Shown: positions 19,515-62,000, counted from the whole stretch's first letter. The stretch: 63,085 bases of DNA, filler included, from Chrysochromulina tobinii (GCA_001275005.1; 4 parts of 4 records of this genome joined end to end with filler, not necessarily neighbours in it); one strand, 5' to 3'. Translations and numbers: made by a program. Notes: a model not told the origin generated them from the letters alone.

Positions 19515-22500
19515 ATGCACGCGGCAATGCTCCTCAGCTTGCTGTACCCGCCGATCACGGGCTACAGCGTGGCGTACGGCCCCGGGGCACACAGCGTGCC
19601 GCCGATCGCTCCGCAGCGGCGACCCGCGCCAGCGCGTGTGGCAGCTCTGAGGATGGAGGTGGAGGCGGCGGCGCCATCGGCGGTCCAGTTGGCTGTGTCC
19701 TCCACTTTCCAGCTCCCAGGTGGCAGCGCCGGCAGCAGCATAGGCAGCAGCAGCAGCGATGGCGGCGATGGCGGCGTCGGAGAGGAGGACTGGTCGTTCT
19801 GGCTGTCGCGCCCGCGATACGCCCGCTTGCGCGACATCGCCCTCTCCATCACCGTGCGAAGGACGGTCAACGAGGCCGAGCTCGCGCTCAAGCTCGCTCG
19901 GGAGTACTCGTCGAATCCGTCGCTGCTCCAGGATATCGACTTCTCGTCGCTGATCCTGCGGCTACAGAGAGACATCGACGTGAACAACGCGCCGCTCAGC
20001 GCCTCCGGGATGCTCTCGGCGGCCGAGCTCGACGAGATCTTGAAGCGCCAGATCGACGCGATCGCCGAGCTGAAGGCCAACCCTCTGGCGCTCGAGCTGG
20101 CGCTGGATGGAGCGGTGAGCGGCGCGGCGGGAAAGCTGCCCAAGCTGCGCCGCGTCATCTCGCGCGCTCGTGAGCTTCCGTTAACGATCGATCTGCCCGC
20201 CATCCAAGGAGACGGCGGTCTGGACTTCCGACTCGCTCTCAATGAGAGCAAGAATGTCGTCGAGGCGGTCCAGCAGGCGTGGCAGCGGCTGAGCGGCACG
20301 TCGCCCGAGAAAGAAGAGACTCTCATGACCCTCCAGCAAGAGTCGCGGGCGTTGCTCTCTCTACGCGCCGAGGCGACGAAACTCCGTGGAGGTGATGGCG
20401 TCTGATTGCCACTGATTGCCATTGATTGCCATTGATTGCCATTGATTGCCACTGATTGCCACTGATTGCCACTGATTGCCATCAGAGGCGACGAAACTCC
20501 GTGGAGGTGATGGCGTCTGATTGCCACTGATTGCCACTGATTGCCATTGATTGTCATTGATTGCCATTGATTGCCATTGATTGCCACTGATTGCCATCAG
20601 AGGCGACGAAACTCCGTGGAGGTGATGGCGTCTGATTGCCATTGATTGCCCTTGATTGCCATTGACTGCCATTGATTGCCATTGATTGCCATCAGAGGCG
20701 ACGAAACTCCGTGGAGGTGATGGCGTCCGATTGCCATGCGGCTGATGGCCACACGAGTGCAGCTGATTGCCACCCGACGCCCCTTGACGAACCCGACTCC
20801 CCTTTCGCAGGCATCAAGCTCGTGCAGCGCCAAAAGGAGCTCAAGGCGGCCTACCTAATTAGGTTTGGCACCTCGGCAGGATTGATGGAGGAGACGTTAC
20901 GCGCGGACGTGGCCATCTGCAAGCTCCAAAAGGAGCTCGGGCTCAAGTACGTTGATTGCCATTGATTGCCATTGATTGCCATTGATTGCAGATGATTGCC
21001 GATGATTGCCAATGATTCGCGAGCTGGAAGAGGGATCGTGGGCTCAAGTCCGCTCTCATCTTCGTGATTGCCTTATGATTGTGACTCGATTGCGACTGAT
21101 GATCCCTGATTGCGTCTCCCTAATATGGCAGGTCCGCTCTGCTCGAAATGGAGCGCATCTTCCTGACTCTCGAGTCTGAGCTCGCACTCACCTCGTCCCT
21201 CATCGACCAGGTGATTGATTACGTCTGATTGCATCCTGATGGGGACTGATTACTCTCGAGTCTGAGCTCGCACTCACCTCGTCCCTCATCGACCAGGTGA
21301 GGACCACTGAGGACCACTGAGGACCACTGAGTGCTATTTGATGACCTCCCATGACCTCCCATGACCTCCCATGACCACGGATGCTCCCCCGTCCGTCACC
21401 GGCCAGCTGCTCGAGGCCGTGCAGCGCTACGGCGAGATGGAGGCGAGATTGCACGCGATGGTGACCGAGGTGCAGCGAGATCAGCATGCACGCGTGGACG
21501 AGGATCAGCTACTTCAGCTCGAGCAGCAGATCTTCGTAGAGCTCTTGCAACTGGGGCTGCAGTCACAGGTAATTGACGACCTTTGAGTGCATTCTGACGA
21601 CATCCGATGACCTTTGAGAGCATACTGATGACATCCGATGACCTTTGAGAGCATGCTGATGACATCCGATGACCTTTGAGAGCATACTGATGGCATCCGA
21701 TGACCTTTGAGTGCATACTGATGACATCTGGTCGCATCTCGCAGGACACGGGTAGACCGGAAAGCTTCTCGTGGCCGCGCACGCGCGAGGCGCTCCAGGT
21801 CAATGCCAAGCGTGCCGGCGAAGGGCTTGCGTTCTACTCCCGAGGCCTCCGGCTCATGGGCGAGGATGTTCAGCTGATGGTCAATATGATCAGCCGCGCC
21901 GTCGTCCAAGGGTACGCTGATTGCGTCTGATTGCGTCTGATTGCGTCTAATTGCCTAATATGATCAGCCGCGCCGTCGTCCAAGGGTACGCCCAAGACGA
22001 CGCGAAGCTCTCTCACTGATGACTGATGACCTCACTGATGACCGTTGATCTCTCACTGATGGCCGTTGATTACCAAGGGTATGGGAAGCTCTCCCCACAG
22101 CAGAGGTAGGGGAGGCATGACAGTGCTCCCCACGGCGCCCTCTCCCCACAGGTACACCCTCAAGCCGCGGGAGGCGAAGTTGCTGCAGCGCATAGCCAAG
22201 GACCTCTTCACGCTCGTGCCCTTCGTCATCATCCTCATCATCCCTCTCTCGCCACTCGGGCATGTGCTCGTCTTCTCCTTCATCCAGCGCTTCTTCCCAG
22301 GTGATCTCCCGCTGATCTCCCGCTCATCTCTGACCTCGGATGACCTCGGATGACCTCGGATGATCACGGATGATCCCGGATGATCACGGATGATCTCGGA
22401 TGACACCTGATGACCCTTTGGAGTGCCTCTGAGCGCGATCTCGTCCTCGGCAGATTTCTACCCGTCGCAATTCACAGAGTCTCGTCAGAACATCATGTCG

Positions 22501-22849
22501 ATGTACTCGGCCATCACAGCCCCGAGCACAGGTGCGCTGACGAACCTCTGACGAACCTCTGATGACCTATGATTGCCTTCCTCATCACAGCCCCGAGCAC
22601 AGGTGCGCGGCTGAGCCTCGGTGCGGACCTCTGATGACCTATGATGAGGACCTCTGATTGCCTCCCTCATCAGGTGCGCGGCTGAGCCTCGGTGCGGACC
22701 CAGCAGAGCAGACGGAACAGGCGGGGGAGGTGGCGCAAGCAGTTGCGGGTGCGGTCATTGGCACCGAGGTGGCGCTGATGAAGGCCGAGGTGACGGAGAC
22801 GGGCAAGGCGGAGGCGGAGGCTACGGGCAAGGCGGAGACGAAGTCCTGA
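19515..22849 (+). CDS. LETM1-like protein, probably plastid-targeted; 8 exons
   Basis: Exons 19515-20391, 20811-20946, 21132-21210, 21407-21568, 21745-21911, 22152-22300, 22454-22531, 22674-22849, all GT-AG. Spliced C-terminal part reads [10 protein letters not shown]...[58 protein letters not shown] (LETM1-like). N-terminus looks like signal peptide plus transit peptide ending ALRM. Confidence 0.8.
20392..20810 (+). repeat. Intron built from (YTGATTGCCA)n 10-mers plus three copies of the exon end and donor
   Basis: Read directly from the sequence. Confidence 0.9.
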
Positions 22850-22976
22850 TCATGGCATGCTGGTGATGGCATGCTGATGATGGGCACTGTGGAGACAAAG
22901 TCATAAGTAGATAAAGGAGCAATGGCCGTCAGAAGCGTGAGTGCTGCGGCCGACACCGGCGCCGTTGGCGGCGCGA

Positions 22977-23081
22977 ATCACCGTAACGAAACGTCCATGG
23001 CCTGTGGGATCATCACCGTAACGAAACGTCCATGGCCTGTGGGATCATCACCGTAACGAAACGTCCATGGCCTGTGGGATC
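22977..23081. repeat. 35-bp perfect tandem repeat x3, downstream of the LETM1-like gene
   Basis: Unit ATCACCGTAACGAAACGTCCATGGCCTGTGGGATC, with no spacers. Confidence 0.95.
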
Positions 23082-23649
23082 AGCCTTTGGGACGCGATGA
23101 GGCCTCATGGCGGGCGTTATGAGGCGTCATGGCGGGCGCACACACGCACACACGCTATGAGCAGGCGCGCGCGTGCGGGGTGCCAGGTGAGAGAGAGAGA
23201 GAGAGGAGGACCTGAATCCCGCACTCTCGCAGTCACTTAGCCCCCCACTTTGCCTCCCCGCTTTGCCCCCCCCACCTCCAGCTGCTGGGGTGGGGGAAGA
23301 GCAGAGAGGACCTGAATCCCACAGTGCCGCCAGTTACTTTCGCCCCTCCCCCCTCAGTCTCGGGCGAGTGGTGAGACGAAGGTGCAGGAGCGCAACGGAC
23401 TGCGCGTACAGTGGGAGAATCGTCTCGGAATACATGTTGTAGTGCGTGTGTGTCGAATACATGTTGCACAGCAAAAACGAAAATACCGTCGTACAATTGT
23501 ACGACGTCCCCCCAATTGGATGAATTTTCTACTCAACTTTGTTGTCCGATTTGGAAAATCTCTGAAATCTCCGATGTGGCAAGTTGAAGTTTGAAAAAAG
23601 GGCGTTCGCGTGATTGAACACCCGATTGTGGAATCGCAAGTTTCGCGAC

Positions 23650-24003
23650 ATGCTTGAGGACTCTCTCGCGTCGCGGCTTGCCGAGAGGCGTCAGCTCAGT
23701 CAGCGCCGCCGCAGCGAAAGACCGGCTTCCCCCTGGGCTCAAGCGAGCATGAGCCTACGTACTCTATCACCTCTGTCACGTCGCGCAGAGACAGCGCGCA
23801 CGAAGTTGTTTTCCGATGAGAAGGAGCCCTTGGCCATGTTCTCGCCCGAATTCTTTTCGTTGGTGTACACCGAGCAGAAGCAAGATCGCGCGACCGGCAC
23901 CACGGAGCAGCAGAGGCGTGTGCTGCTCGCGCCCCGCTCACGCGATTCGTCGCCTCGACACGGGGGGACGCCATCACCGACGCTCGTACTCCCCATCTGG
24001 TAG
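23650..24003 (+). CDS. Hypothetical small protein (117 aa)
   Basis: ATG ORF (MLEDSLASRLAERR...) downstream of an AT-richer promoter-like stretch; no recognisable domain. Confidence 0.35.
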   Translation: MLEDSLASRLAERRQLSQRRRSERPASPWAQASMSLRTLSPLSRRAETARTKLFSDEKEPLAMFSPEFFSLVYTEQKQDRATGTTEQQRRVLLAPRSRDSSPRHGGTPSPTLVLPIW

Positions 24004-24636: not shown

Positions 24637-27600
24637 TCATCGCGTGCGCTTGGGCGCTGCTTTGGAGGGTTGCCTCGCTGTCGCGCCGCTCGACCCCTTG
24701 CGAGGCGTCGTCTTGGGCGCATGGCCGGACGAGGCTCGATCTCGCTTGGAGCTCGATCTCGGCTGAGCTGACGCCGCGCGCGGTGGCGTCGGGCTCGGCG
24801 GCGGCGGGTTCGGCGGCGGCAGCGGCGTGTGCCGCTGCCGCTTGCGTGCGGCCATGATGGTCTCGAATGCCATCTTTGTCTTCACGAAGACTTCGGTTGT
24901 ATCACGAGCCCTGTAATGACCGACGCAATCAGGTGGTCATCAGGAGTCATTATTAGTCATCAGGAGTCATCAGTAGTCACTCAGGGGGCAATCAGGTGTC
25001 ATCAGGAGTCACATCTCACGTTTGAGAGTCGAAGGCCGACGTTTTATCTGGGTGATAGACGAGCGACAGCTTCCGATATGCGGATTTCACTTCACTCGTC
25101 GAAGCGAAACGGCTGAGACCAAGCGTCGCGTATGACTCCACCAATGAGAGCCCGTCCCTCGCCCAGCGTGTGCCTGATGTGGACGAGAGACGAGGCGCCG
25201 TGGTGAGCACACGCATTCTCGGGCAGGAGCTGAGGGCATGGAAACCCCTTAATGTCCCAATCGAAGCATTTGGAGGTGCACTCAGAGGCACCCAGAGGCA
25301 CTCAGAGGCACTCAGAGGCACCCAGAGGCACTCAGAGGCACTCAGAGGCACTCAGACGCACCCAGAGGCACTCAGAGGCACTCAGAGGCAACCAGATGGG
25401 CACACCTTTAATGTCCCAATCGAAGCATTTGGAGGTGCGCCGGTCGCCACTGAAGATACACAAGCGCTCGAACGCCGTGCCGAGCGCGCGTGACCATTCG
25501 ATCTTGAGGCAGGCGTGCTCTTGCCAGCCACCGCCACCGAGCGCGTGAATGACGAACCTGGCGAGCCGATCGGGTCTGAGCATGCACATGCCGCCGCTGA
25601 CGAAACGCGCCGCGTTGAGCGTGCGCTCTCGCCCGTCGACGGTGAGTGGCACCTGATGAGGGAGGCAATCAGCCACCATTAGGACGCCATCAGTCGTACT
25701 CTGGACGTAATCAGTCCCCATCAGAATGCAATCAGACGTAACCGGTCCCCATCAGGATGCAATCTGACACAATCAGCGTACCGTCTGGCGCATGAGGAAT
25801 GCAATCAGCCTGATGAGGGAGGCAATCAGACACAATCAGCGTACCGTCTGGCGCATGAGGAATGCAATCAGCCTGATGAGGGAGGCAATCTGACACAATC
25901 AGCGTACCGTCTGGCGCATGAGCAGCCCTGCGAGCACCAGAGCCCAGAACGACGCGGCGACGAACCTGATGAGGGAGGCAATCAGTCTGATGAGGCATGC
26001 AATCAGATATGTGAGCCCAGAACGACGCGGCGACGCACGTGACGGCCAGTGCCGCGAGCAAAGAGCGGCGCGGCTGTCGTGTGGACGGACGTCGACGTAA
26101 CGACCGTAGATTGACCGCCATGGCCGCGAGCAGCAGAGGTAACGTGACGCCGCCGCGCCCGGCATCCGTCGCGGCGGCGGCGGCGCCGGGAAGCCAGAGG
26201 GGCGCATAGCCACACCTGATGAACGACACAATCAGAGGCCATCAGAGGCCATCAGAGGCCATCAGAGGCCATCAGAGGCCATTCAGAGGTCATCAGAGGC
26301 CATCAGAGGTCATCAGAGGTCATCAGAGGTCATCCGAGGTCATCCGAGGACATCCGTGGCCATCAGAGGTCACTCAGAGGCCATCAGAGGTCATTAGAGG
26401 TCATCAGAGGTGATCAGAGGTCATCAGAGGTCATCAGAGGTCGTCAGAGGTCATCAGAGGTCATCAGAGGTCATCAGAGGCATTTTGAGGTCATCAGAGG
26501 TCATCATCACCTCTCGATCACAGCGCCACCGAAAGCGCTCAGCGCGAGGAGCCTGTTGGGTACCGGTAGCCCCGTCGTGCCGGCAGCGAGGAAGAGGGTC
26601 AGCAGCGCGCAGCTTGCATGCACCTAATGAGGGACGCAATCAGAGGTATTTAGAGGTCCTCAGAAGAGGCACTCAGGGTTGCATGCATACAGTCATGCAC
26701 CTGATGAGGGACGCAATCAGAGGTATTTAGAGGTCCTCAGAAGAGGGTTGCATGCATACCGTCATACGGAGCGTGGGCGACAGCAATCAGTCTGATGAGG
26801 CATGTAATCAGAAGAGGCTCTCAGGGTTGCATGCATACCGTCATACGGAGCGTGGGCGACAGCAGTGGCGGGTCTAGACTGCTGCTGAAGCGCAGTGCGT
26901 GATATGTGAGCCACGAACCTGTATTCATGGTACAAGAGGCGACCCGTCGCTGTCAGTCGCCATCTGTCGCAATCAGACGCAATCCGACGCACTCAGTCGC
27001 GCTCAGTACGTGATGCGTGCGCCACGCACCCAGAGGCCATCAGAGGCGATACGCACCCTGAGCAATCAGTTTCAATCAAATGCAATCAAATGCAATCAGA
27101 GGCCATCAGAGGTCATCGGAGGCCATCAGAGGCGCCACGCACCCAGGGCAAGGTGCCAGCTCAGACTGATGAGGGAGGCAATCAGTCTGATGAGGCATGC
27201 AATCAGATATGTGAGCCACGCACCCAGGGCAAGGTGCCAGCTCAGACGATAGAGCAGCCGCACCGCGCCGGAGAGTACGCTGAGCTCCGAGGCCATCATC
27301 ACCGTCTCACTCGCTAGAGGCTGACCAGCGACGCTCTCAGCGCGAGTTGCCACATTTGGGGCGACCTTAGCGAGTTGCCATTTTTGGGTCGGCACAGCCG
27401 CCGCGCCGCCGTGGGCACCCCCCTTGTCAAGCACCGAGGCTAGCGAGGCTGGAGAGGCTTCGAGGCTAGCGAGGCTGGAGAAGGCCTTCGAAGCGTCTCT
27501 CGAGGCAGGCTTTGACGACACCGCACCTCGAAGCCTCGCGATGGCTCCGACGGCCCAAAGGCTCAGCTTGCCCACAGTGTCGAACGCGCCACCGCGGCTG

Positions 27601-28037
27601 CCGCCGCTCGGATGGGCTTCGGCCTCGGCCTGGCCGAGCTGTCGCACGTAGCTCGGGATGCGGAACGCGTCGCGCACCCAGCCGAGCAGGAACCCGTTGA
27701 GCGAGATCGACGAGACGAGCGCCTCGCAGTTCCGGCCGAGGTACAGATGATGTGCGCCGAAGATGCCAAAGAGGGCCCAGAGCACGTACGCGACGAGCAT
27801 CCGGAACACCGAGAACGGGACTCGCACGGCAGGAGCACCAGCCGGTGCGTGTGCCTCGTTGGGGACGGCGGCAGGCGCGGAAGCCGCCCGTGCTGCGCGC
27901 AGCTCTGAGGCGATCAGCAGCTCTCTGCGTGCTGAAACGGTCCGCCCGACGCCATGGAGCTGGCCATCAATGGCGGCGGTGCTGGAGAGCATGAGAAGCA
28001 GCAGGATGCCGGCTATGGGTGGCGAACTTCGTCTCAT
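24637..28037 (-). CDS. TM2-domain + multi-TM + C-terminal DnaJ protein (DNAJC22/wurst-like); 8 exons
   Basis: Introns 26919-27223, 26624-26838, 26216-26510, 25966-26038, 25653-25907, 25174-25405, 24911-25019. TM2 motif LVAYVLWALFGIFGAHHLYLGR...GWVRDAFRIPSYV; J domain YATLGL..SEVKSAYRKLSLVYHPDK..FVKTKMAFETI; signal-like N-terminus MRRSSPPIAGILLLLML. Confidence 0.82.
26216..26510 (-). repeat. Intron consisting almost entirely of (CTGATGRCCT)n 10-mers
   Basis: Read directly (plus strand CATCAGAGGT/C repeats). Confidence 0.9.
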
Positions 28038-28511
28038 TGTGGCTTTTGCAGTGGCTTTGAGGTACCGCATGTGAGGACGCCACCCTTCTGCGAGCGCGAG
28101 TGAATGGTCAACGGCGTGTGATGACGCGTGTGAATGGTCAACGGCACAGACGGCGCATTCTCTGCTCAAGCAAGGACAAAGTTTGTGGAGGTCCTGTAAA
28201 TCGTGACGCAAGGTTGGTAGTTGACCTACCTGACAACACGCGACAGAAGAACTGGCAGGTGCGTCGAAGCATTGCATGATAATGACGTGGCCCCGACCCA
28301 CCGCCATATCATAGCTGGACACGTCTCCGGGGATGGCAGGAGCAGGAACACGGCCAGGAACACGGCCCGAGCCACCGAACTCGCCGAGAGCACGTCGGAA
28401 CACATGTGTGTGCTGAGAGCACAGATCACAGCTCCGGGCGGGCGCTGTGGCGCTGAGGCAAGTATCTCCGCCCAAATCAGGCAAGTATCTCCGCTGTCTC
28501 GGGGCCGCCGT

Positions 28512-28600
28512 TAGGCGCTCTGCTGGGCACCCTCTGCTGCCGGTAGGCGCCCTGCTGGGCACCCTCTGCTGCTGTAGGCGCCCTGCTGGGCACCCTCTGC
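28512..28600. repeat. ~32-bp tandem repeat x3 downstream of the DEAD-box gene
   Basis: Unit approximately TAGGCGCCCTGCTGGGCACCCTCTGCTGCCGG. Confidence 0.85.
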
Positions 28601-28835
28601 CGCGTATGTCCACTCGTCCGCATGCCGCATGCATCGGCCGCCGCGCCGCGCCGTATCGAGCGCGCCGACGTCCTCATGCCGCATATGCATCGGCCGGTCT
28701 GACCGCGCCGTATCGGGCGCCCGCTGCGCACATCTCTCTCGCTCTCAGTGAGTCAGATGCCCCCTTACGCTCACACGCACGCACGCGCGCGCACCTCCCT
28801 CACCCTCTCTCGCGCGCGTAGGTGCGAACATCTGC

Positions 28836-31256
<2,421 letters not shown>

Positions 31257-31567: not shown

Positions 31568-31667
31568 NNNNNNNNNNNNNNNNNNNNNNNNNNNNNNNNN
31601 NNNNNNNNNNNTTAATTAATTAANNNNNNNNNNNNNNNNNNNNNNNNNNNNNNNNNNNNNNNNNNNN
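31568..31667. other. Artificial contig linker
   Basis: 44 N + TTAATTAATTAA + 44 N. Confidence 0.99.
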
Positions 31668-31955
31668 AATACGCGTGGCAAAAGCCGCATTCGAGCCGGC
31701 ACACGGCACGCATGTGGGGCGTTCTCGGGATGAGCAAGTGTTCGGTTCGTACGAGTGTCAGCGTGCGTCGTCGTGCGCTCTCCATGCTACTCGGGCACTG
31801 TGTGTTAGGGCATGAGCCGCTCTCCGTGTGTGAGGTCGCGTGAACGGTTTCTTGGGTGGAAGGCCCGCGTCTAGCGGTTCACAGATCAGAATTTCAGACC
31901 CCCTGGTTCACCCGATCGGTCGAAGAGGCCCCTCCCTTTCCCGTTGCCTCGAGAA

Positions 31956-45858: not shown

Positions 45859-45998
45859 CGCCCACGACGGCGTCCCCTTGACGGCGCCCGAGACCGAGGC
45901 GAATGAAGTCTCCGCCCCTTAACGCCCACGACGGCGTCCCCTTGACGAATGAAGTCTCCGCCCCTTAACGCCCACGACGGCGTCCCCTTGACGGCGCC
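45821..45998 (+). repeat. 64-bp tandem duplication (2 full + 1 partial) spanning the stop codon of the IPT-C2 gene
   Basis: CGCCCGAGACCGAGGCGAATGAAGTCTCCGCCCCTTAACGCCCACGACGGCGTCCCCTTGACG at 45821 and 45885; partial copy from 45946. Confidence 0.9.
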
Positions 45999-46565: not shown

Positions 46566-49500
46566 TCAGGCAGGCACGCTGTCGTTGCGACGCTTTGAGC
46601 ATGCCTTTTCGACATGAGACTGCAGGAAGACGACAAGATCAGGCGGGAACCTGGCCGCATCAGTTGTCGGTCCGGCATCGCGGCCAAGCTGCTTGTGGCA
46701 GGCAGGGCCTACCTTGCAAGGAGTTTCCTCGCTGCAGATCTTCTCTCCATTTTCTAGCTCCTTGATCAAGCTCTCGATATTTGTCCAGAAGAATGTAGGC
46801 TTCTCGTACTCCATCCCAAACTTGCAGTACGTCAGCTCCACTTGAGTTGCGCCAATTCCGCCATGATCCACAGGGACCTGCATCATCTTGAAGTGGATGA
46901 GCTTCTGCGCGTTCCCAACTGGGGCCTCCACAGTAAATTTGAAATCACTGTTGCCAGAGCGGCGCCGCTGGTTTTGACACACGTCCAAGATCCACTGTAG
47001 ATCGCTATTGTACTCTTTGCAGCAATCGTCGTAGCCGAGAAACGCAACTGGCATGTCGGTTTCTTTGCGCGGGTGCGCGGAGCCTGCTGCCCTGCTCACT
47101 GAGGTGCACTGTGGGCTGAAATGCGCGTAGTCGAGAGTGGGAAGGTCCTCAGGCTTGATGTCGCGGCACATGCAGAGTTCAAAGTAGACCGTGGCCTTCG
47201 AATTGGCCGCTGCCTGGCGCATCTGCGCTGCAGCCTCACCCGGCGGAGCGCCCACGCGCGGCTGAGTGAGCACATCGTTGTAATCAGGCGCTTTGCAGTC
47301 GCGCTCTATGATGAGCACCTCCGCACCCGACGAGTTGCAGCACTGAGTGGCAAGGCGGCCGGAGCCGGCAAAGGCCTCCATGATGCGCATCTTTCGCAGC
47401 GTCGTTCTCCGGCAAGGGAAGACCCTATTAGGCTGAACTGTGGGCCGCCTGACAGCAGCAGCAGGCGTGGCAGTTGCAGCCTCCTCATCGTCGTTTGCTG
47501 CTTGCCCCGCTGCACGCGGCGCCACGCACAGCGCCTCAGCCTCGCCCTCCTGCCCCAATGGGCCGTGGACCGCGCCATTTGCTGCGTCATCCACTTCTCC
47601 GCCAGCCGCCCCAGCCTCATCCTCTTCGCCCTCCTGCCCCAATGGGCCGTGGACCGCGCCATTTGCTGCGTCATCCACTTCTCCGCCAGCCGCCCCAGCC
47701 TCAGCATCCTCTTCGCCCTCCTGCCCCAACGGGCCGTGGACCGCGCCATTTGCTGCGTCATCAACTTCTCCGTCAGCCGTCCCAGCCTCATCCTCCTCTT
47801 CTTCTTCGCAAGATGCGCACGCGCTCCGCTTAATCGTCTTGGAACGCTTCTGATTCGTGCTGACTGCGATCATTGGGCGCTTGGACGTGGCTCCTGCACT
47901 GGTCGGTGGTAGTGGTGCGTCAGCGGTCACATCATTCAGCACCAGCCACTCACTCACTGGTGCAACCAGAATCGTGAGTGAGTGGCTGGCGTTCCTGCGC
48001 TCCTCGACAGCATCCTGGAATACGGTCCAGGGCAACATAAAGGACGGCGGCAAAGAGTTCAGGCCCATGTGCTTCATCAATCCGTCGAGATGCCCAAACG
48101 CCTGGTTTCGCCTACCCTGCAGCTCGAAGCCGCCCTTCAGCACCCACCAGTTGCGCGGCTGCTCAATGCGCTTATCGCTCAATATCATCACCTCGGGTAT
48201 CACGCGTGCACGGCAGTGTCTAAAGATCTCGCTCACGAGCCTAGTAGCTACGCCTTGCTTCTCGTAAGACGCCTTGACCGCAAACAGAAGCACCTCGAGC
48301 GCAATCGATTTGGAGCGTGAATTGGCGCGCACAATGCATGTGCACGCCGCCGCTATAACCTCCTCGCCCTGCACAATCAGTGCAAGGCCGAGGTTGTCAT
48401 GTTGGGAGTCGCCGGCTTGATTGTCCGCAAGCGGCTTGCTCTTCCCAGGCCGATAGTTGATCGCAACCTTCCCGAACTTGGACAAACCCAGTAGGCCCGG
48501 TACCAGCGCTTTGAACCACTCAACGTGGCCGAAGCGCTCTTCAAGCACGTCCTTCGCGCCCTGCAAGAGCTCTGGCTGCGTCTGCTTGAGGTCCTTGATC
48601 GTCTCGACGACTCCCTTTGCCCAACTTGGGATGTAATGCGACTCGTTCACCTCGTCGCTGGCCACCTCATTGTCCTCTTGCTGCACCTGGCGCAGCTCCT
48701 TCTCGTCATCCTCGCTGACAGCGGGCATGCGCGGACAATGCGGCATGTGCGTCTTAAGTCTCTTGAACGCCTGATGGCACCAAAGGCACGGGGAGGTTGC
48801 CGGCGCTCCTGCCGGCGCTCCCTCCGGCGGTTCCCTCGCCGCCTGCACCGGCTGCCCCTCCTCAGCTGCAGCTTCCTTGTCCTGATAGACACCATCCTCC
48901 CCCTGCAGCGTCGATGTGCTCGGGCGCGCATGAAGCTTGCAATTGCCCGGGTGTTCGAAACCACGCCCACACCGCGAATGTATGTAGCAGTGATCGAGTT
49001 CGCGGCATTTTTCTATACTCGGGTCATCCTCTGCATCCGGCGTTCCCTCCGTGATGCGCTTGCGATTTGGTAGTCGCTGGAGCTTCTTATGAGTCCCATA
49101 AGGCCGAAGGCGCACGACATCGCACACCAGCTCTTCCAAGACCTCGCGAGTCTTTGGATCGAGGAGATCAACGTTGAAGTGCCCAATGGCCATCTTCTTC
49201 GCAATGCGAGCCATCTGCCATGCACCGTCAAAAAGCACTTCCACCTCACTCGTACTTGGCAACAAATCCAGCCACGTCAACGGGGGCGGCGCCGGTCGTG
49301 TTCGCACTGTGCTGCGCATCTGCTGCTGCGACTTGAAGGCTCGCACCTCAAACCAGGTCGCAAAGGGTGGAATGAACAGGCCAGAGCCGGCGACACCAAA
49401 AGGATCGCTCTGGTGCTTGGCATGTGGCCAGGGCACGTTACGCACCCACTCAACGCCCTCGCTACTCAACGTAACGTGAGACTCGATCCAGCTTCTGTCG

Positions 49501-50710
49501 CCAGCCACTTTGGTGAGAATGATAGAGTCCCCATCGGCATTGAAGTGTGCTACTGTGGCCGGGCGCCACTTCATATGCTGGTGCCCCTCGTTGTCCTCAC
49601 CATCAATCTCACAGTGTGTTTCGACCCACACTCGGCTGCCAGCGACCAAGTTTGCAGCGCGGGCCTGAGCGTCAGCCAGCTGCAGCTGCGTTGGCGCAAA
49701 ACGGCTTGCCGTGGGCCCCGATGGAACCGGAGCACGAGCATTAGGCATGCAAGGAGGCAAGAGCACAATGCCATCCATGATGTAGGTGCTCTTGGTCCGA
49801 CGCTCGTTGAGCTGCCTGGTGGCGGCGGGAGGCCGCCCAAAGCGATCAGCAATGTCCTCGAGCGTCTCGTCATGACTGGCCTGATGGAACTCAGGCAGCA
49901 TGATGCACGAGTACGCCCTCAGCTTGCCAGTAAGGTTGAGGTCGCTGCTCGCAATCAGCTGCAGATAAGTTGCCAGCATAGGGTGGAGCGCACGCACGTC
50001 CTCCTGGAATTCAAGGATGACCTCAAGCACCGCCGCTGCAACCGCCTGATCGCTGTAGCTTGCATTCACGATGCTGCGGATGGTCTCGTTCTCCTTGCAC
50101 ACATACCGCCATGCGCCTGCCGGTGGCTGCGGCTCGTCGAGCGCCACATATGTGCCGCGAGTGCCTTTTGCCGCGAGTGCTGGACAGTCCAGCACGATCC
50201 CGGAGCGCCATGTGTCGTCTTCCAGTACCTCGACGAGGTCGTCCGGCTGCGCTGGAACCAGCCGGATGTGCGGCAGCGGTGGCCACTGGTACATGCTGAG
50301 TACTTTGGCGATTGCAGCCGTCACAAGCTTGGTCACGGCCGTAGGCGGCACGGTGAGCGTCGTGCATGCGCAAGCTGTGCAGTGCCAATCGCCCTCAGGG
50401 ATGGTCGAGAGCAGAGGTGTCACGCAATAAATGTGGTACCCTAGGTCGCAGCCATCGCAAATAAGCATCCGAGACTCGTCAGCCCCACCACCGCAGATAC
50501 CGCACGACATTGTTTCGATGTGCATCTCATACTCCTCAGCGAGCTTCATGGCCTCCTCAACAGCGGTTTTGTATTCCATCTGATCAGCCTGACTGTAGAC
50601 ACAGTGCGACGTATTCTTGAGCTTCTTGATCTCGCCGCTTTTGTCGCAAGGGTGTCGATCTGACCATGTCTTGAGGTCTTTCTCATTGAACACGTCACAG
50701 GGAGCCGTCG
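46566..50710 (-). CDS. Multidomain chromatin protein: PHD finger, LysM-like and Tudor/Agenet-like modules, GNAT acetyltransferase, C-terminal C5 DNA methyltransferase-like domain (5' truncated)
   Basis: PHD CGIC..MLICDGCDLGYHIYC..IPEGDWHCTAC; GNAT EVLLFAVKASYEKQGVATRL..WW..GF; MTase motifs EAFAGSG (I), SPQCTSVS (IV), TVEAP (VI), YCKFG..KPTFFWTN (VIII), ARFPPDL (X). The frame stays open to the contig edge. Confidence 0.8.
47545..47800. repeat. ~78-81-bp coding tandem repeat x3
   Basis: Encodes EEDEAGAAGGEVDDAANGAVHGPLGQEG units in the PHD-GNAT-MTase ORF. Confidence 0.9.
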
Positions 50711-50810
50711 NNNNNNNNNNNNNNNNNNNNNNNNNNNNNNNNNNNNNNNNNNNNTTAATTAATTAANNNNNNNNNNNNNNNNNNNNNNNNNNNNNNNNNN
50801 NNNNNNNNNN
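50711..50810. other. Artificial contig linker
   Basis: 44 N + TTAATTAATTAA + 44 N. Confidence 0.99.
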
Positions 50811-53496: not shown

Positions 53497-53528
<32 letters not shown>

Positions 53529-54579: not shown

Positions 54580-55883
54580 ATGGGGTCCGCTTTTCTCTCT
54601 CACGTGTTCAGCCCTGTGAACGGCGCAGTCCTGGCCGTCGCGCTCGCCATCCTGCTCGCATGGCCGAGCAGAGAGTCGCACGCGACAGCCGATCCGGAAG
54701 CGGCGGCAGCGGAGGCAGACAGGCTGCGAGAGCGCTGGGACTCGCTCGGCGCGACCCTCAAGATGGCCAGCGGTGCGAGCGCACACTGGAGGCAGTTCCT
54801 CTTTGACCACTATGGCGCCGACGACAGGCAATACCACACGCTGCGGCATCTCACCGAGCTCTTCTGGCATCTGGACCGCGCCACGGCCAACGGGTGGCTC
54901 ACTCGGCCCGAGAACGTGGCCCTTGCCATCTGGTTCCATGACGTCATCTACCACGGCAAGAACGGGGAGGACGAGGAGGCGTCCGCGCTCGCGTTTGAGC
55001 GCTTCGGAAAGGAGGCTGGTCTCGACGCGAGCGACATCGCCTCGGTGGCCAGCTGGATCCGGCTGACGGCAACCCACAAGTGCTCTGAGGCTGAGCACGG
55101 GACGGACTGCTGCCTGTTCATGGACTTTGATATGGCGATCCTTGGCAAGCAATGGGACCGAACGTGGGAAGGCTGCCCGGTGGCGCCCCACACGGGCTAC
55201 AAGGACTATGCGCTACGTGACGTGCTCGGCGAGTACCGGAAGCTCAAGGGAGTTCCGAAGGTATACCTCTGATTGCCGCTGAGTGCCGCTGAGTGCCGCT
55301 GAGTGCCGCTGAGTGCCGCTGAGTGCCGCTGAGTGCCGCTGAGTGCCGCTGAGTGCCGCTGAGTGCCGCTGAGTACCGCTGAGTGACGCTGATTGCTGCT
55401 GAGTGCCGCTGAGTGCCGCTGAGTGCCGCTGAGTACCGCTGATTGCCACGGATCGCCTCCCCGATGGCCTTTCTGATGGCCGCCCTGATGACCTCCCTGA
55501 TCGCCTCCCCGATGGCCTCTCTGATGGCCGCCCTGATCGCCTCCCAGATGACCTCCCTGATACCAAGATAGCCGCCCTGATGGCTCCTCCCATCAGCCCC
55601 CTGATGGCCCCTCTCATCGGGCCCCTGATGGCCCCCTCCTCAGGTCTTCACGCGTCTCTTCGAGCACTCAGTTTGGAGTTATGGGCGAGCACGATTCTTA
55701 CTGGGCGCGAAGGCTCCCTTCAGTACCTCGGTGTACAAAGAGCAGTACGAGGCCGAGGCGCTACGAAATATCGCACGGGAGCTCGAGCACTGGCAGTCGA
55801 ACCAGTGGCGCTTCGAATGGTGCTTGGGCGGCTTGGTGACGTGGTCCATCCTGTATGCTCTACGACGGGTCTTGGTTTCGTAA
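54580..55883 (+). CDS. HD-superfamily metal-dependent phosphohydrolase (COG4339-like) with terminal hydrophobic segments; 2 exons
   Basis: RQYHTLRHL, AIWFHDVIY, EEASA, TATH, DFDMAILG. Intron 55261-55643; exon 2 reads VFTRLF..GRARFL..YEAEALRNIARE..TAA at 55881-55883. Confidence 0.82.
55269..55447 (+). repeat. Intronic (CTGAGTGCCG)n 10-mer array
   Basis: About 17 near-perfect units within intron 55261-55643. Confidence 0.95.
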
Positions 55884-56067
55884 AATCAGTTCGTAATCAC
55901 CGTCGGATCCACAACCTTCGCGTGCCCCAGCCAACCCCCAGGGCCCCGTGGCGTAGCGAGCTTCAGAGTAGGTGTCAGAGAGAAGTGACGTGACAATTCC
56001 ACAGTTCTGGTCTGTGGAATTTCCGAGGTCGACTGCGACGCTTGCCGACGCTCGCGCCGCAGGAGAC

Positions 56068-59000
56068 ATGGCCGAGGCGATGCTGGATGACGCCTTGATG
56101 CGAGAGGCGCTCGGTCTTCGCCGTCGCGGCGCCGTCAACTACACGCAGGAGCTCGTGCACGAAGACGAGCCAGAGCCTCCGAAAAAGCGCCGAGCGGGCG
56201 GAACCGCCGCGGGCGAAGGCTCCTCTCGGAGCGGCGCGCGCAAGCCAGCGGCCAGCAGCGCGCGCAAGCGCCGAACGCGTGGCGCCGACTCGGATGATGA
56301 CGACGACGATGACGATGAGGACGATGAGGACGAGGACTTTAGCGAGGACGAGCCGCCGCAGCGCAAGGCCAAAGGTCGTGGCTCGAAGGCCGCCCCGAGG
56401 CAGAGCGTGCGCTCGGAGCCGCGCGGCAAGTACAAGGAGCCGAGCGACGATGACGACGACTTCCACAGCGACGACGGCGACGAGCGCCGTGGCGGTGCGG
56501 CCGCGGTGGCCGCCGTGCAGTCGATCTACGACAAGATCCTCTCGCAGCGCCCGGCGGAGAAAGCAGGCGAGGAGGAGGGCGAGGTGGAGCCATCGGACAG
56601 CACCGAGTACCTCGCCAAGCCGCGCGGCAAGTGCGTCTGCGCCGCCGCCGCTGCGTGCCGTGCGCGTCTCGCCGTGCCGTCGCCAGCCCGTTGGTCTGCG
56701 CCCCGCGATGGCTCGTGTGCACTGCACCCGGCCCTGCCGCTGCCCACCTGCCGCTGCCCACCTGCCGCTGCTCACCTGCCCCTGCCGCCGCCGGCTTCCA
56801 ACGATGATTCGATTCCGTGCGCTCGTGTTGCCTGGTTGTCTGCCATTTCCTCTCTGCCTGCGCCTTGGCCGCCGTCGTCCTGTGATGAGAGCGCTCATCA
56901 CATAGTGAGCCACCCCCCTTTATTGGGGCGTGCCTCTCTTCTCTGATGATCCAACGAAGCTTCAGTTTGAGAATACCTGAGGACTGCCCGTCTGGCTGTG
57001 CAGCGCTGGCTGGCTGCTTGGCTGCTTGGCTGCTTGGCTGGCGAGCTGTGGCTGGCTGGCTGTGCCTCTCTCTGCACGTGGCTGCCTGGCAGTCTGTCTG
57101 GCAGTCCTGCCTGGCTGTCTGTCTGACTGACTGGCAGACTGTGTCTCGGTTGCGACACGAGCGCACGCGTGTCCGGCGCCCGTCTCGGCGCCTATCTCGG
57201 CCCCTTTCCCCACACCATGCCCACTGCACCCTCTCATCGCCACCGCTCCATTCCTCTCGCGTCCTCCCCCCCTCCACCCAGGTCGTACATACATTGCGTG
57301 TGGATCCCAGAAGAGCAGGTGCTTGAAGACACACCTGATGACACCTGATGGCACCTGATGACACCTGATGACGCCTGATGACGCCTGGCTGATGACTCTC
57401 GGATGACCTCTCCGATGGCTGCAGGTCCTCGCCGACCATCAAGGCCTCGCACGCCTGCGCCGCTGGCAGAAGCAATGGTCCATGCTGCAGGAAGAGTTCC
57501 GGTACGGCATACTCACTCGGAGTGCCTCTGATGACTGACGAGCGTACTCACTCGGAGTGCCTCTGATGACTGACGAGCGTACTCACTCGGAGTGCCTCTG
57601 ATGACGACACTCATTTGCATCCGAGTGCGTCTGATGGCGACACCGATGGCGTGTGCATGCAGGTACGATGCACTCAAGGCGGCCGAGTGGGAGCCCTACC
57701 CTCAGGAATGGGAACAAGTCGAGCGCGTGGTGGCACAGCGATGCGAGGCGCCGGGCGAGATTGAATACCTCATCAAGTGGCGGCAACTCACCTATGCAGA
57801 TGCGAGCTGGGAGCTGGCCGAGGTGTGATTGCCATCTGATTTCCATCTGAGGCCCATCTGCGTGCCATCTGAGGGCCGTCTAATGGCCTCCACCATCAGG
57901 ATGTGCACGACGACGACGCGATCACAGCCTTCGAGCAACGGCAGCAGAGGCCGACACATGAATGGTACACCAAGCCGCTCGCGTCGGGCCGGAAGGAGCG
58001 TACCCCGTGGGCGAAATGCGCTTCGTCACCCGCCTACAAGGGCAGCAACACGCTGCGCGAGTATCAGCTCGAAGGTCTCAATTGGCTCTCCTTCTGCTGG
58101 CACACGAAAGTCAACTCGATCCTGGCGGATGAGATGGGGCTGGGCAAGACGATCCAATCGGTCTCGCTCCTCAATTATCTGTTTGAGAAGCAGGGTGTGT
58201 GGGGACCGTATCTGGTGGTGGCGCCGCTCTCCACGCTGCCGCACTGGCAGGTGTGTGTCGCTGAGTGCCGCTGAGTGCTGCTGAGTGACGCTGAGTGCTG
58301 CTGAGTGACGCTGAGTGACGCTGAGTGACGCTTGCCACTTCCGCAACGGCAGCGCGAGCTCGAGAGCTGATGGCCTCTAATGACTCGGATTCGCCTCGAA
58401 TGAGCTCTGATTGCCTCCCTCATCAGCGCGAGCTCGAGAGCTGGACCAAGCTGAACACGGTCATCTACCATGGTTCGAAGGAAGCACGCCAAGCGATCCT
58501 GCAGCACGAGTGGTGGTTTGAGGACGATGCGACCGGTGGCCGTTCCAAGAAGGGGGCGCAGCTGCACAAGTTCAATGTGCTCTTGACCACGTACGTCGCC
58601 TCTGATGACCCCCTATGACCTCCGATGACCTCCGATGACCTCCGATGACCTCCGATGACCTCCGATGACCTCCGATGACCGCCGATGACCGCCGATGACC
58701 GCCGATGACCTCCAATCGCCTCGCTCATCAGGTATGAGATGGTCAACCTGCCGTACGCGCCCGGCGAGCCTCACCTCGCCTCGACGCACTGGCGCTGCCT
58801 CGTCGTCGACGAAGCTCATCGACTGAAGAACTCGGACTCCAAGCTCAATCAAGAACTCGAAAAGTTCACGACTGACCATATGCTGCTGCTCACCGGCACC
58901 CCGCTGCAGAACAACCCGACTGAGCTGTATAGTCTGCTGCACGTAGCGTCACCGGCCGAGTTCCCCTCGTTCGAAGCCTTCGAAGGGCGCTTCGGCGACC

Positions 59001-62000
59001 TGTCGACGAAGAAGAACGTGGAGAAGCTCCATGCGGCCATGCGCCCGTACTTTCTGCGCCGCATGAAGGCGGACGTTGAGAAGTCGGTGCCTCCGAAGGA
59101 GGAGATCGTGGTGCAAGTCGAGCTCACGTCGACGCAGAAGCAGTGGTGAGCCGAATCTCGGAGTGAATCTCGGAGTGAATCTTGGGGGTGTCCTCCGGAT
59201 GACCCTGATGACCCTCTGATGACCCTCCGAGGACCCTCTGATGACCCTCTGATGACCCTCTGATGACCCTCTGATGGCCCTCTGAGGACCCTCTGATGGC
59301 CCTCTGAGGACCCCTCCGAGGACCGCGTCTGAGCGCCTCCTTAATGACCTCCCTCATCAGGTACCGTGCCATCTACGAGCGGAACCTTACCTTCCTCAAG
59401 ACCCAGGCGACGCCCAACGGCCCCGCGCACGGGCCCTCGCTTATGAACATCGTCATGGAGCTGCGCAAGTGCTGCAACCACCCTTTCCTCATCGAAGGTG
59501 CTGAGGCGCAGATTCTGCGCCAGACGGGCGTCGTACCGGGCGGTTCGGTAGGCGACGTGCTCGTCTCTTCGGCAGGCAAGATGGTGCTCGTCAACAAGCT
59601 GCTGCCCAAGCTGCGCAAGCAAGGGCGCAAGGTCCTCATCTTCTCGCAGGTGAGATGGCTCCCTGATTTCACAGATGGCTCCCTGATTTCACAGCAGGTG
59701 AGATGGCTCCCTGATGACGTTTGATTTCCAGTAGATGACCTCTCTGGGAAGGGTGCTCCTCTTCTCTTCTCATAGGGGAGAGTGCCCTCTGATGACAATC
59801 ATCAGAGTGCCCTCTGATGAAAATCATCAGATTGCCCTCTGATGACAATCATCAGATTGCCCTATGATGACCCTCTGATGAGACTCTGATGAGAAGGTGC
59901 TCCTCTACTCGCAGATGACGATGGTGCTCAACATCCTCGAGGATTACCTCCGCTGGCAAGCATATCCATACGAGCGCATCGACGGTTGCGTCAAAGGCAA
60001 CGATCGGCAAGCGGCCATCGACCGCTTCTCGCGACCCGAATCGGATCGGTTTGTCTTCTTGCTGTGCACCAAAGCGGGCGGCGTGGGGATCAATCTGACC
60101 GCCGCCGATACGGTCATCATCTACGACTCCGATTGGAACCCGCAGAACGATCTGCAAGCGCAGGCTCGCTGCCACCGCATCGGACAGACGCGTCCCGTGC
60201 AGGTGAGTCCACTATCGAGCATCGATGGCCCCTGACTGCCCCTGATGGCCCTTATGACCCCTGATGGCACCTGATGGCCCCTGATGGCCCCGCCCAGGTC
60301 TACCGGCTCGTGACGCGCAACTCGTACGAGGAGATCATGTTCGAGAAGGCGTCGCTCAAGCTGGGCCTCGACCAGGCGGTCCTGTCGGGCATCGAGTCCG
60401 CTGGCGCCAAGAAGTTGAGCGGCAAGGAGATCTCAGCGCTGCTCCGACATGGCGCGTACGGCGCGCTGGCGAACGAAGAGGACGCGACGCAATTCACCGA
60501 GGCGTCGATTGACGAGATCCTGTCGAGATCGTCCAAGACGGTCGTGCACGACGCCAAGCAGGCCGAGGGAAAGTCCACTTTCTCGCACGCGCACTTTGCG
60601 GTCGCGGTGGGAGGGACGGACGTCTCCGTGGACGATCCCGAGTTCTGGACCAAGGTGGGGTTCGTCAACCAGCAGGCGGACGAGAGCCAGCAGAAGGTGA
60701 CGAATTTGGGAGAGCGCAAGCGCAAGCAGGTGCGCTGAGTGCATGCTGATTGCCTCCCTCATTCAGGTGGGGCGCGCCTCGGGGTGGACGGGCTATTCTC
60801 TGAGTGCCTCGCTGAGTGCATGCTGATTGCCTCCCTCATCAGGTGGCTCGCCTCGGGATGGACGGCGCCCTCTTTGATGACGAAGAGGACGAGGCGAGCG
60901 CCAACATCCAGGCGGACCGAATGTTCACAGCGCTGTGCCGTTTTGGTTGGCATCGTGCAGCCGAGCTGCCCTCGATCGCGCGCGTGCATCCGCACTCGTC
61001 CGAGGATGCGATCAAGCTGAGCGCCCACTACCTGTGCCAATGCGCAGCACAGGTAGCTCCGGTGGCTGACAAGTGGCCCGTGGTGCTCGCGGCGAGCGCG
61101 GTGGTTACAGCCGGCGGGAGCAAGCCTCCGAAACCGATGCAATCGTTGCGGGTGCGCGAGCGCATAGAGAAGAAGGCTCGGCATGACCTGCTGCGCTTAC
61201 ACCAGCTGCACGCCCTGCATGCGTTCGTCCTGCGCCAACCCGCGATGGCCGCCGCGTGCGCCGTCCCGGGCGACGTTGGGGACGAGGGCGGCGTGGGCGG
61301 CGTGGGTAGCAGCAGCGCCCTTGGTGGCAGCGCCCGTGAGGCGGAGGCGAGGTGCGTTCAGCTGCTGCTCGACTCCGAGAGTGCGTCGACGGCGGCGGGT
61401 TGGGGCTCTTCGCTGCTGGGCCGGGCGTGTGCGGCGCTGCAGCCGCTGCTAGACGACGTCAAGGGCGCCCCGCCTGCGCCGGCGTGGGGCGCCCAGCACG
61501 ATGCGAGGCTGCTCATTGGCGTGTACGTGCATGGCTGGGGCCACTACGACCTCCTTCGCAAGCACGATGCGCTATGGCAGTTTGCAACGGCGCTGGAGGA
61601 GGGTGCCGACGCGGACGCGGCGGCGGCGGGCGGAGCATGGGGCGGCGGCGCGTGGCCCGAGACCAAAGTGCTCGAGAGGCGCGTGAACGCGCTGTTCAAA
61701 AGGGTGCCCGGCGCGGCGCCGCCTAAAGAGCTCGGCAGCGGCGGCGGTGGCGGCGGCGAGGGTGGCGAGGGAGCGTCTTCCCGCGCGGACGCGAAGGATG
61801 GCAGCGCCGGCGGGGGGGCGAAGCGCAAACGGAAAGTGGAGAAGGTGCAGCCGGACGACGACGACGACGAGGAAGAGGAGGACGAGGACGAGGACGAGGA
61901 GGATGAGGATCGTCCCTATAAGCCCATGAAGAAGGGCTCGGTCAAGAAGGAGCCCTCGCTCAAGAAGGCCGCAGGCGCCAAGAAGGCGACTGGCGGCGCG

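What the first reader, a model, noticed from the sequence alone, without database searches (positions are those of the whole stretch)
20392..60297. Intronic tandem arrays converge on ~10-nt period, sense orientation and a YTGA core
Seen (gene-sense units): YTGATTGCCA (20400-20690, 20952-21010), CTGAGGACCA and ATGACCTCCC (21300-21375), CGGATGAYCW (22335-22405), CTGAGTGCCT (25280-25390), CTGATGRCCT (26230-26505), CTGAGTGCCG (55269-55447), CTGATGACAC (57335-57380), CTGAGTGACG (58261-58330), CCGATGACCT (58601-58710), the 11-mer CTGATGACCCT (59200-59320) and CTGATGGCCC (60230-60290). The sequences differ but the period is shared. Because 10 mod 3 = 1, three consecutive units place TGA in all three frames. 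Inference: these could be multiplied branch-point-like sites, an NMD safeguard against intron retention, helical-period nucleosome signals, or the footprint of a repeat-adding or slipping polymerase.
Basis: partly seen in the sequence, partly recalled or inferred. Interest (0 to 1): 0.72.

Follow-up and report, generated by a model that had tools for sequence, protein, structure and literature searches.

The report
Branch-point repeats from intron-making insertions
In this alga many introns are filled with 10-letter repeats resembling the splicing branch-point signal, and these likely come from a process that makes new introns by duplicating a short stretch of a gene and inserting a copy of another intron's tail between the two copies.

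Summary
All 12 arrays lie in modelled introns on the sense strand, with period 10 (one 11); 12 of the window's 29 modelled introns are bridged by RNA contigs. The organism is of the Chrysochromulina tobinii/parva group. The units are variants of the first 10 letters of a stereotyped intron end, CTGATKRCCTCCCTCATCAG (branch-like A at -17).

In 147 metagenome loci carrying this end, young-looking introns have one build: a 10-38 nt duplication of the downstream exon start, which supplies the GT/GC donor, plus a 26-99 nt filler of 1-6 units and the acceptor. One such 79-nt intron is absent from a 97%-identical allele. Unit number differs between alleles. Relatives' ORFs run through most array-bearing intron positions.

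Best reading: ongoing intron gain and renewal, probably by templated repair of staggered breaks, followed by slippage. Stops in all three frames look like a by-product of the TGA core.

It resembles introners but fails fixed target duplication and end-to-end similarity. The scan found the duplication-flanked introns before on another piece of this genome (e1-2577349). Strand-biased 10-11 bp intronic repeats are recalled from Emiliania huxleyi (paper not held).

The parts
19517..22846 (+). Gene A (about 606 aa; LETM1-like by my recall, no Pfam hit on the one exon tested), 7 introns
   Evidence: open frame after splicing; RNA contigs of 3 runs join 6 of the 7 introns
20392..20810 (+). Intron A1: YTGATTGCCA arrays; exon end + donor + array repeated about 2.8 times (115-nt unit, 20370-20692)
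20947..21131 (+). Intron A2: TTGATTGCCA array; holds a short exon-end/exon-start junction copy
   Evidence: junction copy read directly from the sequence
21211..21406 (+). Intron A3: 45-nt exon-end copy, CTGAGGACCA and ATGACCTCCC arrays
   Evidence: no RNA joint listed for this one
22301..22453 (+). Intron A6: CGGATGAYCW array (decayed branch core)
22532..22673 (+). Intron A7: two nested events; 27-nt copy of the downstream exon start (22603-22629) + 44-nt filler ending in the stereotyped acceptor; also a 20-nt exon-end copy
   Evidence: RNA joint
24640..28085 (-). Gene B (about 654 aa open frame; TM2-like start and J-domain-like end by my recall), 7 introns
   Evidence: best open frame among the splice combinations tried; not RNA-confirmed
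25174..25405 (-). Intron B6: CTGAGTGCCT array followed by a 31-nt exon-end copy; second type of 3' end (CTCACCACGGCG)
25966..26038 (-). Intron B4 (73 nt): 26-nt copy of the downstream exon start (one change, improving the donor) + filler; shares 52 nt with intron B1, 1.2 kb upstream
26216..26510 (-). Intron B3: about 27 copies of CTGATGRCCT
   Evidence: summed DNA contig depth 60,775 in this bin against about 45 in exons
26919..27223 (-). Intron B1: 32-nt duplication across the donor with filler, unit arrays; likely donor of the B4 filler
28830..31250 (-). Gene C, DEAD-box helicase (about 590 aa), 4 introns (30433-30290, 30119-29916, 29869-29802, 29537-29312)
   Evidence: the C. tobinii protein P0145 aligns across all four junctions
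55261..55643 (+). Intron E1: CTGAGTGCCG array (17.9 copies) and 12-nt unit array, in a 306-aa gene
56069..63085 (+). Gene F, CHD-type chromatin remodeller (at least 1671 aa), 10 introns
   Evidence: RNA contig record coordinates fit removal of F5-F10
56631..57281 (+). Intron F1: the only CHD intron without CTGA-type arrays; position apparently shared with a distant relative
57319..57424 (+). Intron F2: CTGATGACAC array
58251..58426 (+). Intron F5: CTGAGTGACG array; 17-nt exon-start copy (58353-58369) + 57-nt filler giving a new acceptor
58591..58731 (+). Intron F6: CCGATGACCT array; position apparently shared with one relative (P0006)
59146..59360 (+). Intron F7: 11-nt CTGATGACCCT array; position apparently shared with two relatives (P0003, P0007)
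60203..60297 (+). Intron F9: CTGATGGCCC array
60823..60842 (+). Example of the stereotyped 20-nt intron end CTGATTGCCTCCCTCATCAG (branch-like A at -17, acceptor AG)
   Evidence: RNA contigs join at 60726/60840

Best explanation
The arrays are tandem copies of the branch-point-like start of a stereotyped intron end, and they likely arise from an intron-making insertion process that duplicates 10-38 letters of a gene and fills the gap with sequence copied from the tail of another intron. Shown: the build [copy of downstream exon start, beginning GT/GC] + [filler of 1-6 units ending CCTCCCTCATCAG]; one presence/absence case; unit-number differences between alleles; splicing of the arrays' introns in RNA contigs. 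Inferred: a staggered break or paired nicks give the duplication; a repair polymerase primes on short homology in another intron (more often than chance a neighbour) and copies its last 30-70 letters; in exons only products that start with GT/GC and end at AG survive, which fixes the sense orientation; new introns are born at about 50-110 nt and lengthen by slippage of the 10-nt unit; further events at exon-intron borders add the exon copies seen inside introns and also re-dress old introns. On this reading the last unit is predicted to be the working branch point, and the upstream units are mostly neutral or spare.
For: (1) In 145 predicted introns ending YCATYAG, the next exon starts with GT in 99 (20 of 144 in other introns; GT is 4.7% of coding positions), and intron positions +3 to +14 match the exon start locus by locus (z 3.1-8.8), with no match on the upstream side. 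The signal persists in introns not picked by the search motif: GT in 39 of 61. (2) A copy of at least 12 nt upstream occurs at 32% of 301 such ends against 2% of 614 exonic CAG controls. 35 clean events: duplication 10-38 nt, filler 26-99 nt, total 50-109 nt, donors 30 GT and 5 GC. (3) L040 carries a 79-nt intron (28-nt perfect duplication + 51-nt filler, in-frame stop if unspliced) that L068 lacks exactly; flanks are 292 of 300 identical. Its filler begins like that of the neighbouring intron about 440 nt away. (4) Long matches go with short introns: median 84 nt (n=23) against 156 nt (n=105), Spearman -0.23, p=0.004. (5) Unit number differs between alleles: 80 nt in L002/L004, 10 nt in L062/L130; read-through tails into intron C1 differ among 5 near-identical proteins. 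(6) Genomic-looking ORFs of relatives run through F2-F10 (P0005) and C1-C4 (P0151); C1 is crossed by 5 genomic-looking relatives. (7) Rare 16-mers are shared by 13 of 273 and 8 of 148 same-strand neighbour pairs against 324 of 31,054 pairs from different loci. (8) 11 of 29 window introns hold an exon copy of at least 12 nt, control mean 0.085.
Against: The 29 window introns alone show no clear position-wise match to the next exon (most z below 2.3), so most are older or overwritten. F7, and probably F6, carry arrays and the stereotyped end, yet their positions appear shared with other lineages, so the signature does not always mean gain. Only one presence/absence case was found among six cross-record pairs aligned, with no reads to exclude precise loss or an assembly collapse in L068. 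That the relatives' ORFs were called on DNA is inferred from non-homologous tails and contig length. Microhomology at the duplication/filler joint is weak: mean 2.0 against 1.3 +/- 0.26 in shuffles, testable in 17 of 35 events. Most neighbour pairs share nothing rare. Match length against unit count is not significant (p=0.11). No enzyme was identified and no branch point was mapped.
Confidence: 0.62

Rival explanations
1. Renewal only: the intron positions are old, and local tandem duplications across the acceptor plus deletions between short matches overwrite intron bodies, so that intron starts come to resemble exon starts without any gain.
For: 43 of 97 ends with a copy of at least 12 nt are whole-junction tandem duplications. 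F1, F6 and F7 positions appear shared with relatives. Window introns C3, C4, B1 and B4 match the next exon only from +3 or +4 while the first letters fit the donor consensus.
Against: It does not explain why 99 of 145 downstream exons start with GT and mirror the donor consensus to +6. It does not explain the intron-less L068 allele or relatives that lack most positions. Of 9 long matches with a non-GT exon start, 7 have GC in the exon, as expected for a GC donor later changed to GT.
Confidence: 0.15
2. A non-autonomous mobile element (introner; SINE-like, target-primed reverse transcription) carries the units and the acceptor and inserts with a variable target duplication; the 7-bp inverted repeat CTGATGA...TCATCAG is its recognition structure.
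For: Constant 3' end with variable 5' end and variable duplication length resemble target-primed insertion. The hairpin is perfect in the CTGATGACC form (-7.0 kcal/mol). Introners are reported in Chrysochromulina MAGs and E. huxleyi (PMC9860276).
Against: Shared sequence is limited to the last 20 nt (pairwise identity 0.99, 0.87, then 0.40, 0.32); all 35 filler starts differ; 2 of 35 begin with the left inverted end. The commonest end pairs only 5 bp (-1.3 kcal/mol). No copies in the window's 10 kb of intergenic DNA.
Confidence: 0.13
3. The arrays are selected splicing or surveillance signals: multiple branch points or binding sites that mark introns in a GC-rich genome, or stop codons in all frames against retained introns.
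For: Strong sense bias; 221 of 253 unit-bearing introns have stops in all frames; two JGI gene calls look like transcripts with retained introns F3, F4 or F7.
Against: 41% of upstream units (389 of 958) have lost yTrAy, whole arrays are CCGAT or CGGAT types, and 21 of 264 array units have no stop. Copy number is labile between alleles. Introns without arrays exist (F1, C3). This reading does not account for the exon duplications; it can add to the best explanation as secondary selection.
Confidence: 0.07
4. Helical-period nucleosome positioning signals.
For: The period of 10-11 equals one helical turn.
Against: Such signals work on either strand (established knowledge), yet the arrays are 211:8 sense and absent from the window's intergenic DNA. 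The period equals the length of the branch-point unit upstream of the stereotyped end.
Confidence: 0.03

Closest known systems
Introners that carry the 3' splice site and take the 5' splice site from the target duplication (Symbiodinium; Polarella glacialis classes 4/5 and 6/8/10): PMC9860276 (passages; supplement rows) and bioRxiv 10.1101/2020.10.14.339549 (abstract and part 1 of 2 of Results)
   Same: Donor recruited from the 5' end of the duplicated target, acceptor carried by the inserted sequence, mRNA restored exactly.
   Different: There the duplication has a fixed length per family (3, 4, 5 or 8 nt in the part read) and the Symbiodinium elements have inverted ends. Here it is 10-38 nt and variable, only the last 20 nt are shared, and the body is a locally amplified 10-nt unit.
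Chrysochromulina sp. MAG introners (PMC9860276 Fig. 2C legend; Supplementary Table 5 rows)
   Same: Same genus, intron gain by insertion, no terminal inverted repeats, strongly genic.
   Different: The illustrated family has a 4-bp duplication, carries the 5' site and co-opts the 3' site: the reverse of this case. C. tobinii and C. parva appear in the list of screened genomes; 'tobin' occurs once in the file, not in Table 5 (file cut when stored). I saw no element sequences, so overlap with other MAG families is not excluded.
Daphnia pulex neointrons from staggered double-strand-break repair (PMC4202315; abstract and sections 19 and 23)
   Same: Direct repeats at intron ends, polymorphic new introns, repeated secondary insertions that lengthen young introns.
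   Different: Daphnia repeats are 4-17 nt and most inserts had no identified source. Here the insert comes from other introns' 3' ends and supplies a ready acceptor.
Intron gain by tandem genomic duplication of an AGGT-containing exon segment (review PMC3443670; passages)
   Same: Duplicated exon sequence supplies splice sites; intron C3 and some unit-bearing introns take the acceptor from a copy of the upstream exon end (class U).
   Different: Here non-exonic filler lies between the copies, and AG before the donor is not required (52 of 145).
10-11 bp strand-biased intronic tandem repeats of Emiliania huxleyi (Read et al. 2013, Nature; recalled, not held)
   Same: As I recall it: the same period, intronic location and strand bias in a haptophyte, with function left open.
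   Different: I could not read it or compare unit sequences. I do not recall a link to exon duplications or intron birth there.

Membership tests
Introner (transposon-derived) | Family members similar end to end | tested here: not met
   35 young fillers: identity 0.99 and 0.87 in the last 20 nt, 0.40-0.31 beyond, 0.25 at the 5' end
Introner (transposon-derived) | Locus-specific target-site duplication that supplies a splice site | tested here: met
Introner (DNA transposon type) | Fixed duplication length per family | tested here: not met
   10-38 nt in 35 events; exact prefix 2-29 nt in 97 introns
Introner (DNA transposon type) | Terminal inverted repeats at the element ends | tested here: not met
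   2 of 35 fillers start with the left end; the inverted pair is internal to the last 20 nt
Introner | Presence/absence between close relatives | tested here: met
   one case, L040 against L068; no raw reads
Introner | Copies outside genes and a cognate autonomous element | not testable with these tools
   no whole genome held; none in 10 kb of intergenic window DNA
Intron gain by staggered-break repair | Direct repeats flanking a filler, variable length | tested here: met
Intron gain by staggered-break repair | Microhomology and templated filler at the joints | tested here: inconclusive
   mean 2.0 against 1.3 nt, 17 of 35 testable; neighbour sharing 3-5 fold enriched
Intron gain by staggered-break repair | Dependence on a repair polymerase such as Pol theta | not testable with these tools
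   needs mutants or break assays
U2-type branch point | yTrAy motif at a fixed short distance from the acceptor AG | tested here: met
   A at -17 in 126 of 156 such introns (biased by the search motif); 31 of 61 without the motif. The consensus itself is recalled.
U2-type branch point | Lariat formed at that adenosine | not testable with these tools
   only assembled contigs of RNA runs were available
Known structured RNA (for example a box C/D snoRNA) | Rfam match | tested here: not met
   0 matches at gathering score in the window

The most novel reading that the evidence does not exclude
Introns breed introns without a transposon: the tail of a spliced-out intron or pre-mRNA primes target-primed DNA synthesis at staggered nicks in transcribed genes, with repeated realignment on the 10-nt branch unit writing the arrays, so that a splice-signal cassette spreads itself across the genome and continually creates and rewrites introns in haptophytes.
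Probability: 0.17. Interest if true: 0.88.

Novelty: new variant of a known kind. Interest (0 to 1): 0.63.

Why it matters
How new spliceosomal introns arise is a long-standing question. Most documented mass gains come from transposons, and break-repair gains rarely have an identifiable insert. Here the insert source (other introns' tails), the duplicated target and a polymorphic allele are all visible in a culturable alga with public genomes, so gain can be counted and tested. It would also give a cause for the strand-biased 10-11 bp intronic repeats recalled from E. huxleyi. It warns that introner screens based on end-to-end similarity can miss such a process, and that gene callers are misled by duplicated junctions (my HMM split A1, A5, A7 and F8 at such copies).

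Tried and rejected
No whole genome was held, and the metagenome records behind the loci could not be searched, so the genome-wide histogram rests on the window plus 328 kb of motif-selected loci.

Viral contigs: 0 matches for the 20-nt end and 0 for a three-unit pattern. Prokaryote genomes: 14 single matches, against about 17 expected by my own arithmetic, treated as chance.

P0001 and P0122 read through F5/F6 (and F4) but stop at F7. Their contigs differ by 77 nt, the length of F4, so I read them as partly spliced RNA and did not count them as DNA alleles. A DNA-run contig that skips 25249-25407 between 31-nt repeats was rejected as a likely assembly collapse. 20 of 43 'intergenic' arrays in the loci had period 10; most lie at locus edges or in short loci where the HMM fails, but a few (L024, L043) remain unexplained. 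An assembly artefact for the arrays is unlikely: they recur in many records and in alleles 94-99% identical, although some DNA runs may be the source of this window. A box C/D or other Rfam RNA reading found no support.

Literature: 10 searches listed no paper on these arrays or on long variable duplications in Chrysochromulina introns. The library lacks most subscription papers; Read et al. 2013 was not held. Passages of the C. tobin genome paper (PMC4580454), its organelle paper (PMC4226036), the Phaeocystis genome paper (PMC11347835) and the Daphnia repeat survey (PMC3152781) gave nothing on this.


Full report
Setting. The window is GC-rich eukaryotic DNA joined from contigs by N linkers. 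A CHD exon falls in a 90% cluster with Chrysochromulina tobinii KOO35978.1 and a C. parva protein, and a DEAD-box exon is 100% identical to a C. tobinii protein. No whole genome was held.

Observation. All 12 named arrays are present. I modelled five genes with 29 GT-AG introns, and each gene gives one open frame (A 606 aa, E 306, F 1671, C 590; B 654). RNA contigs from three runs join across 6 of 7 introns of gene A. Record coordinates of RNA contigs fit removal of F5-F10. B, C and E are not RNA-confirmed. In the window, period 10 is found in 22 of 41 intronic, 0 of 37 exonic and 0 of 5 intergenic arrays, and 29 of 31 intronic arrays of period 9-12 are sense. Summed DNA contig depth over array bins reaches thousands to 60,775 against about 45 in exons, so the units are common across the genome; this depth is not a copy number.

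What the unit is. Many introns end in CTGATKRCCTCCCTCATCAG (17 window matches, 0.01 expected). I merged overlapping loci and dropped 12 redundant ones, leaving 122 sequences of 328 kb, and predicted 394 introns with an HMM trained on the window. Period 10 is found in 176 of 293 intronic arrays and 3 of 216 exonic ones; orientation is 211 sense, 8 antisense, 14 ties. The commonest units (CTGATGACCT 42, CTGATGGCCT 17, CTGATTGCCT 13) are the first 10 letters of the stereotyped end. A yTrAy adenosine sits at -17, with echoes at -27, -37 and -47; 569 of 958 upstream units keep yTrAy. That this is the branch point follows from the general consensus (recalled) and is not mapped.

In introns ending YCATYAG the next exon starts with GT in 99 of 145 cases, its consensus mirrors the donor (GTGCGC), and the intron start matches it locus by locus to +14; nothing similar is seen on the upstream side, and other introns show little of it. 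At 301 such ends, 32% have an upstream copy of at least 12 nt of what follows, against 2% of 614 controls. Of these 97, 43 are whole-junction tandem duplications and 54 are not. 35 clean cases have 10-38 nt of duplication, 26-99 nt of filler with 1-6 units, and a total of 50-109 nt. Fillers share only the last 20 nt. Where the exon does not start with GT, long matches mostly have GC in the exon (7 of 9), as expected for GC donors later improved. In the window, 11 of 29 introns hold an exon copy of at least 12 nt (control 0.085); A7, B4 and F5 show the build directly. The 29 window introns as a set do not show a clear position-wise match.

Evidence of ongoing change. L040 has a 79-nt intron with a perfect 28-nt duplication and a stop if unspliced; L068 lacks it exactly, with 292 of 300 flanking letters identical. 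Its filler starts like that of the intron about 440 nt away, which three alleles share. This is the only presence/absence case in six cross-record pairs. Unit number differs by 80 nt in L002/L004 and by 10 nt in L062/L130. Introns with long matches are short (median 84 nt against 156 nt), which fits birth near a minimum size and later growth. Neighbouring same-strand introns share rare 16-mers about 5 times more often than introns of different loci at the strictest setting (about 3 times at the laxest), though most pairs share none; B4 shares 52 nt with B1.

Relatives. ORFs of 57-80% identical relatives whose ends look like intron read-through were aligned to the spliced proteins. P0005 (19-kb contig) begins at the F1 position and crosses F2-F10. 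F1 is the one CHD intron without the arrays. F2, F3, F5, F8, F9 and F10 are not interrupted in any relative that spans them. F7 appears shared with P0003 and P0007, and F6 with P0006. P0151 crosses C1-C4; C1 is crossed by P0147, P0149, P0150, P0151 and P0154. That these were called on DNA is inferred. So most array introns look lineage-specific, while at least one old position has been re-dressed or was gained in parallel.

Mechanism. Shown: the build, the polymorphism, the splicing. Inferred: staggered breaks with templated fill from another intron's tail, selection in exons for products that splice out exactly, then slippage. Whether the template is DNA or RNA, and which polymerase acts, is open; junction microhomology is only weakly above chance. 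Stops in all three frames (221 of 253 against 131 shuffled) follow from the TGA core and may be useful without being the cause. A nucleosome role was not tested and fits the strand bias poorly.

Comparison. It works like introners that carry the acceptor and take the donor from the duplication (PMC9860276; bioRxiv 10.1101/2020.10.14.339549) but fails fixed duplication length, terminal inverted repeats and end-to-end similarity. It resembles Daphnia break-repair introns (PMC4202315), but with longer repeats and an identifiable, splice-ready insert. The period and strand bias are recalled as reported for E. huxleyi; that paper was not held. I had reached the duplication signature before seeing it; it led me to the dinoflagellate preprint. 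It is an AI note on overlapping public data and is not independent support. It reads the insert as a mobile sequence; my similarity test favours copying from other introns.

Verdict. Real and more than chance; a new variant of known intron-gain processes; the arrays are best read as its footprint. Interest 0.63.

Noticed in passing
window 22120-22151 (+), 29312-29345, 29802-29830, 25174-25205, 16955-16995 (-): A second stereotyped intron end (GTGCTCACCACGGCG ... CCCCACAG, branch-like CTCAC); 28 predicted in the loci, with a weaker version of the same duplication signature.
   Followed up: partly
window 29802-29869 (-): Intron C3 (68 nt) repeats the upstream exon end at its 3' end and the downstream exon start from +3 at its 5' end, so both splice sites may come from one duplicated junction.
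   Followed up: partly
window 7901-13792 and 37876-45855 (+): Very long intronless ORFs (1964 and 2660 aa) lie between genes with 4-10 introns; intron density is strongly clustered.
   Followed up: no
window about 16745-16846, 31568-31668, 50711-50810: N runs with an internal TTAATTAATTAA linker: the window joins four contigs, so gene order across them is not evidence.
   Followed up: no
window 46569-50579 (-): A 1337-aa ORF with lower GC3 (0.68) and an 84-87 nt internal triplication (47542-47801); not identified.
   Followed up: no
window 14089-14241, 22977-23082, 45821-45993: Perfect tandem duplications of 35-77 nt outside introns and without filler, which suggests a high general duplication rate.
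   Followed up: no
protein P0146 against window 30433: An 80%-identical relative appears to enter an intron two codons before the C1 position, and its read-through (VIANHL) could encode the same unit family: a possible independent gain nearby.
   Followed up: no
proteins P0123, P0124: The public C. tobinii and C. parva CHD models start with the upstream gene E and skip exons 2-3 of my model, which suggests annotation errors at these introns.
   Followed up: partly
window 18347-18445 and 16955-17043 (-): A sixth gene, cut by the contig end, has two predicted introns of the same two end types.
   Followed up: no
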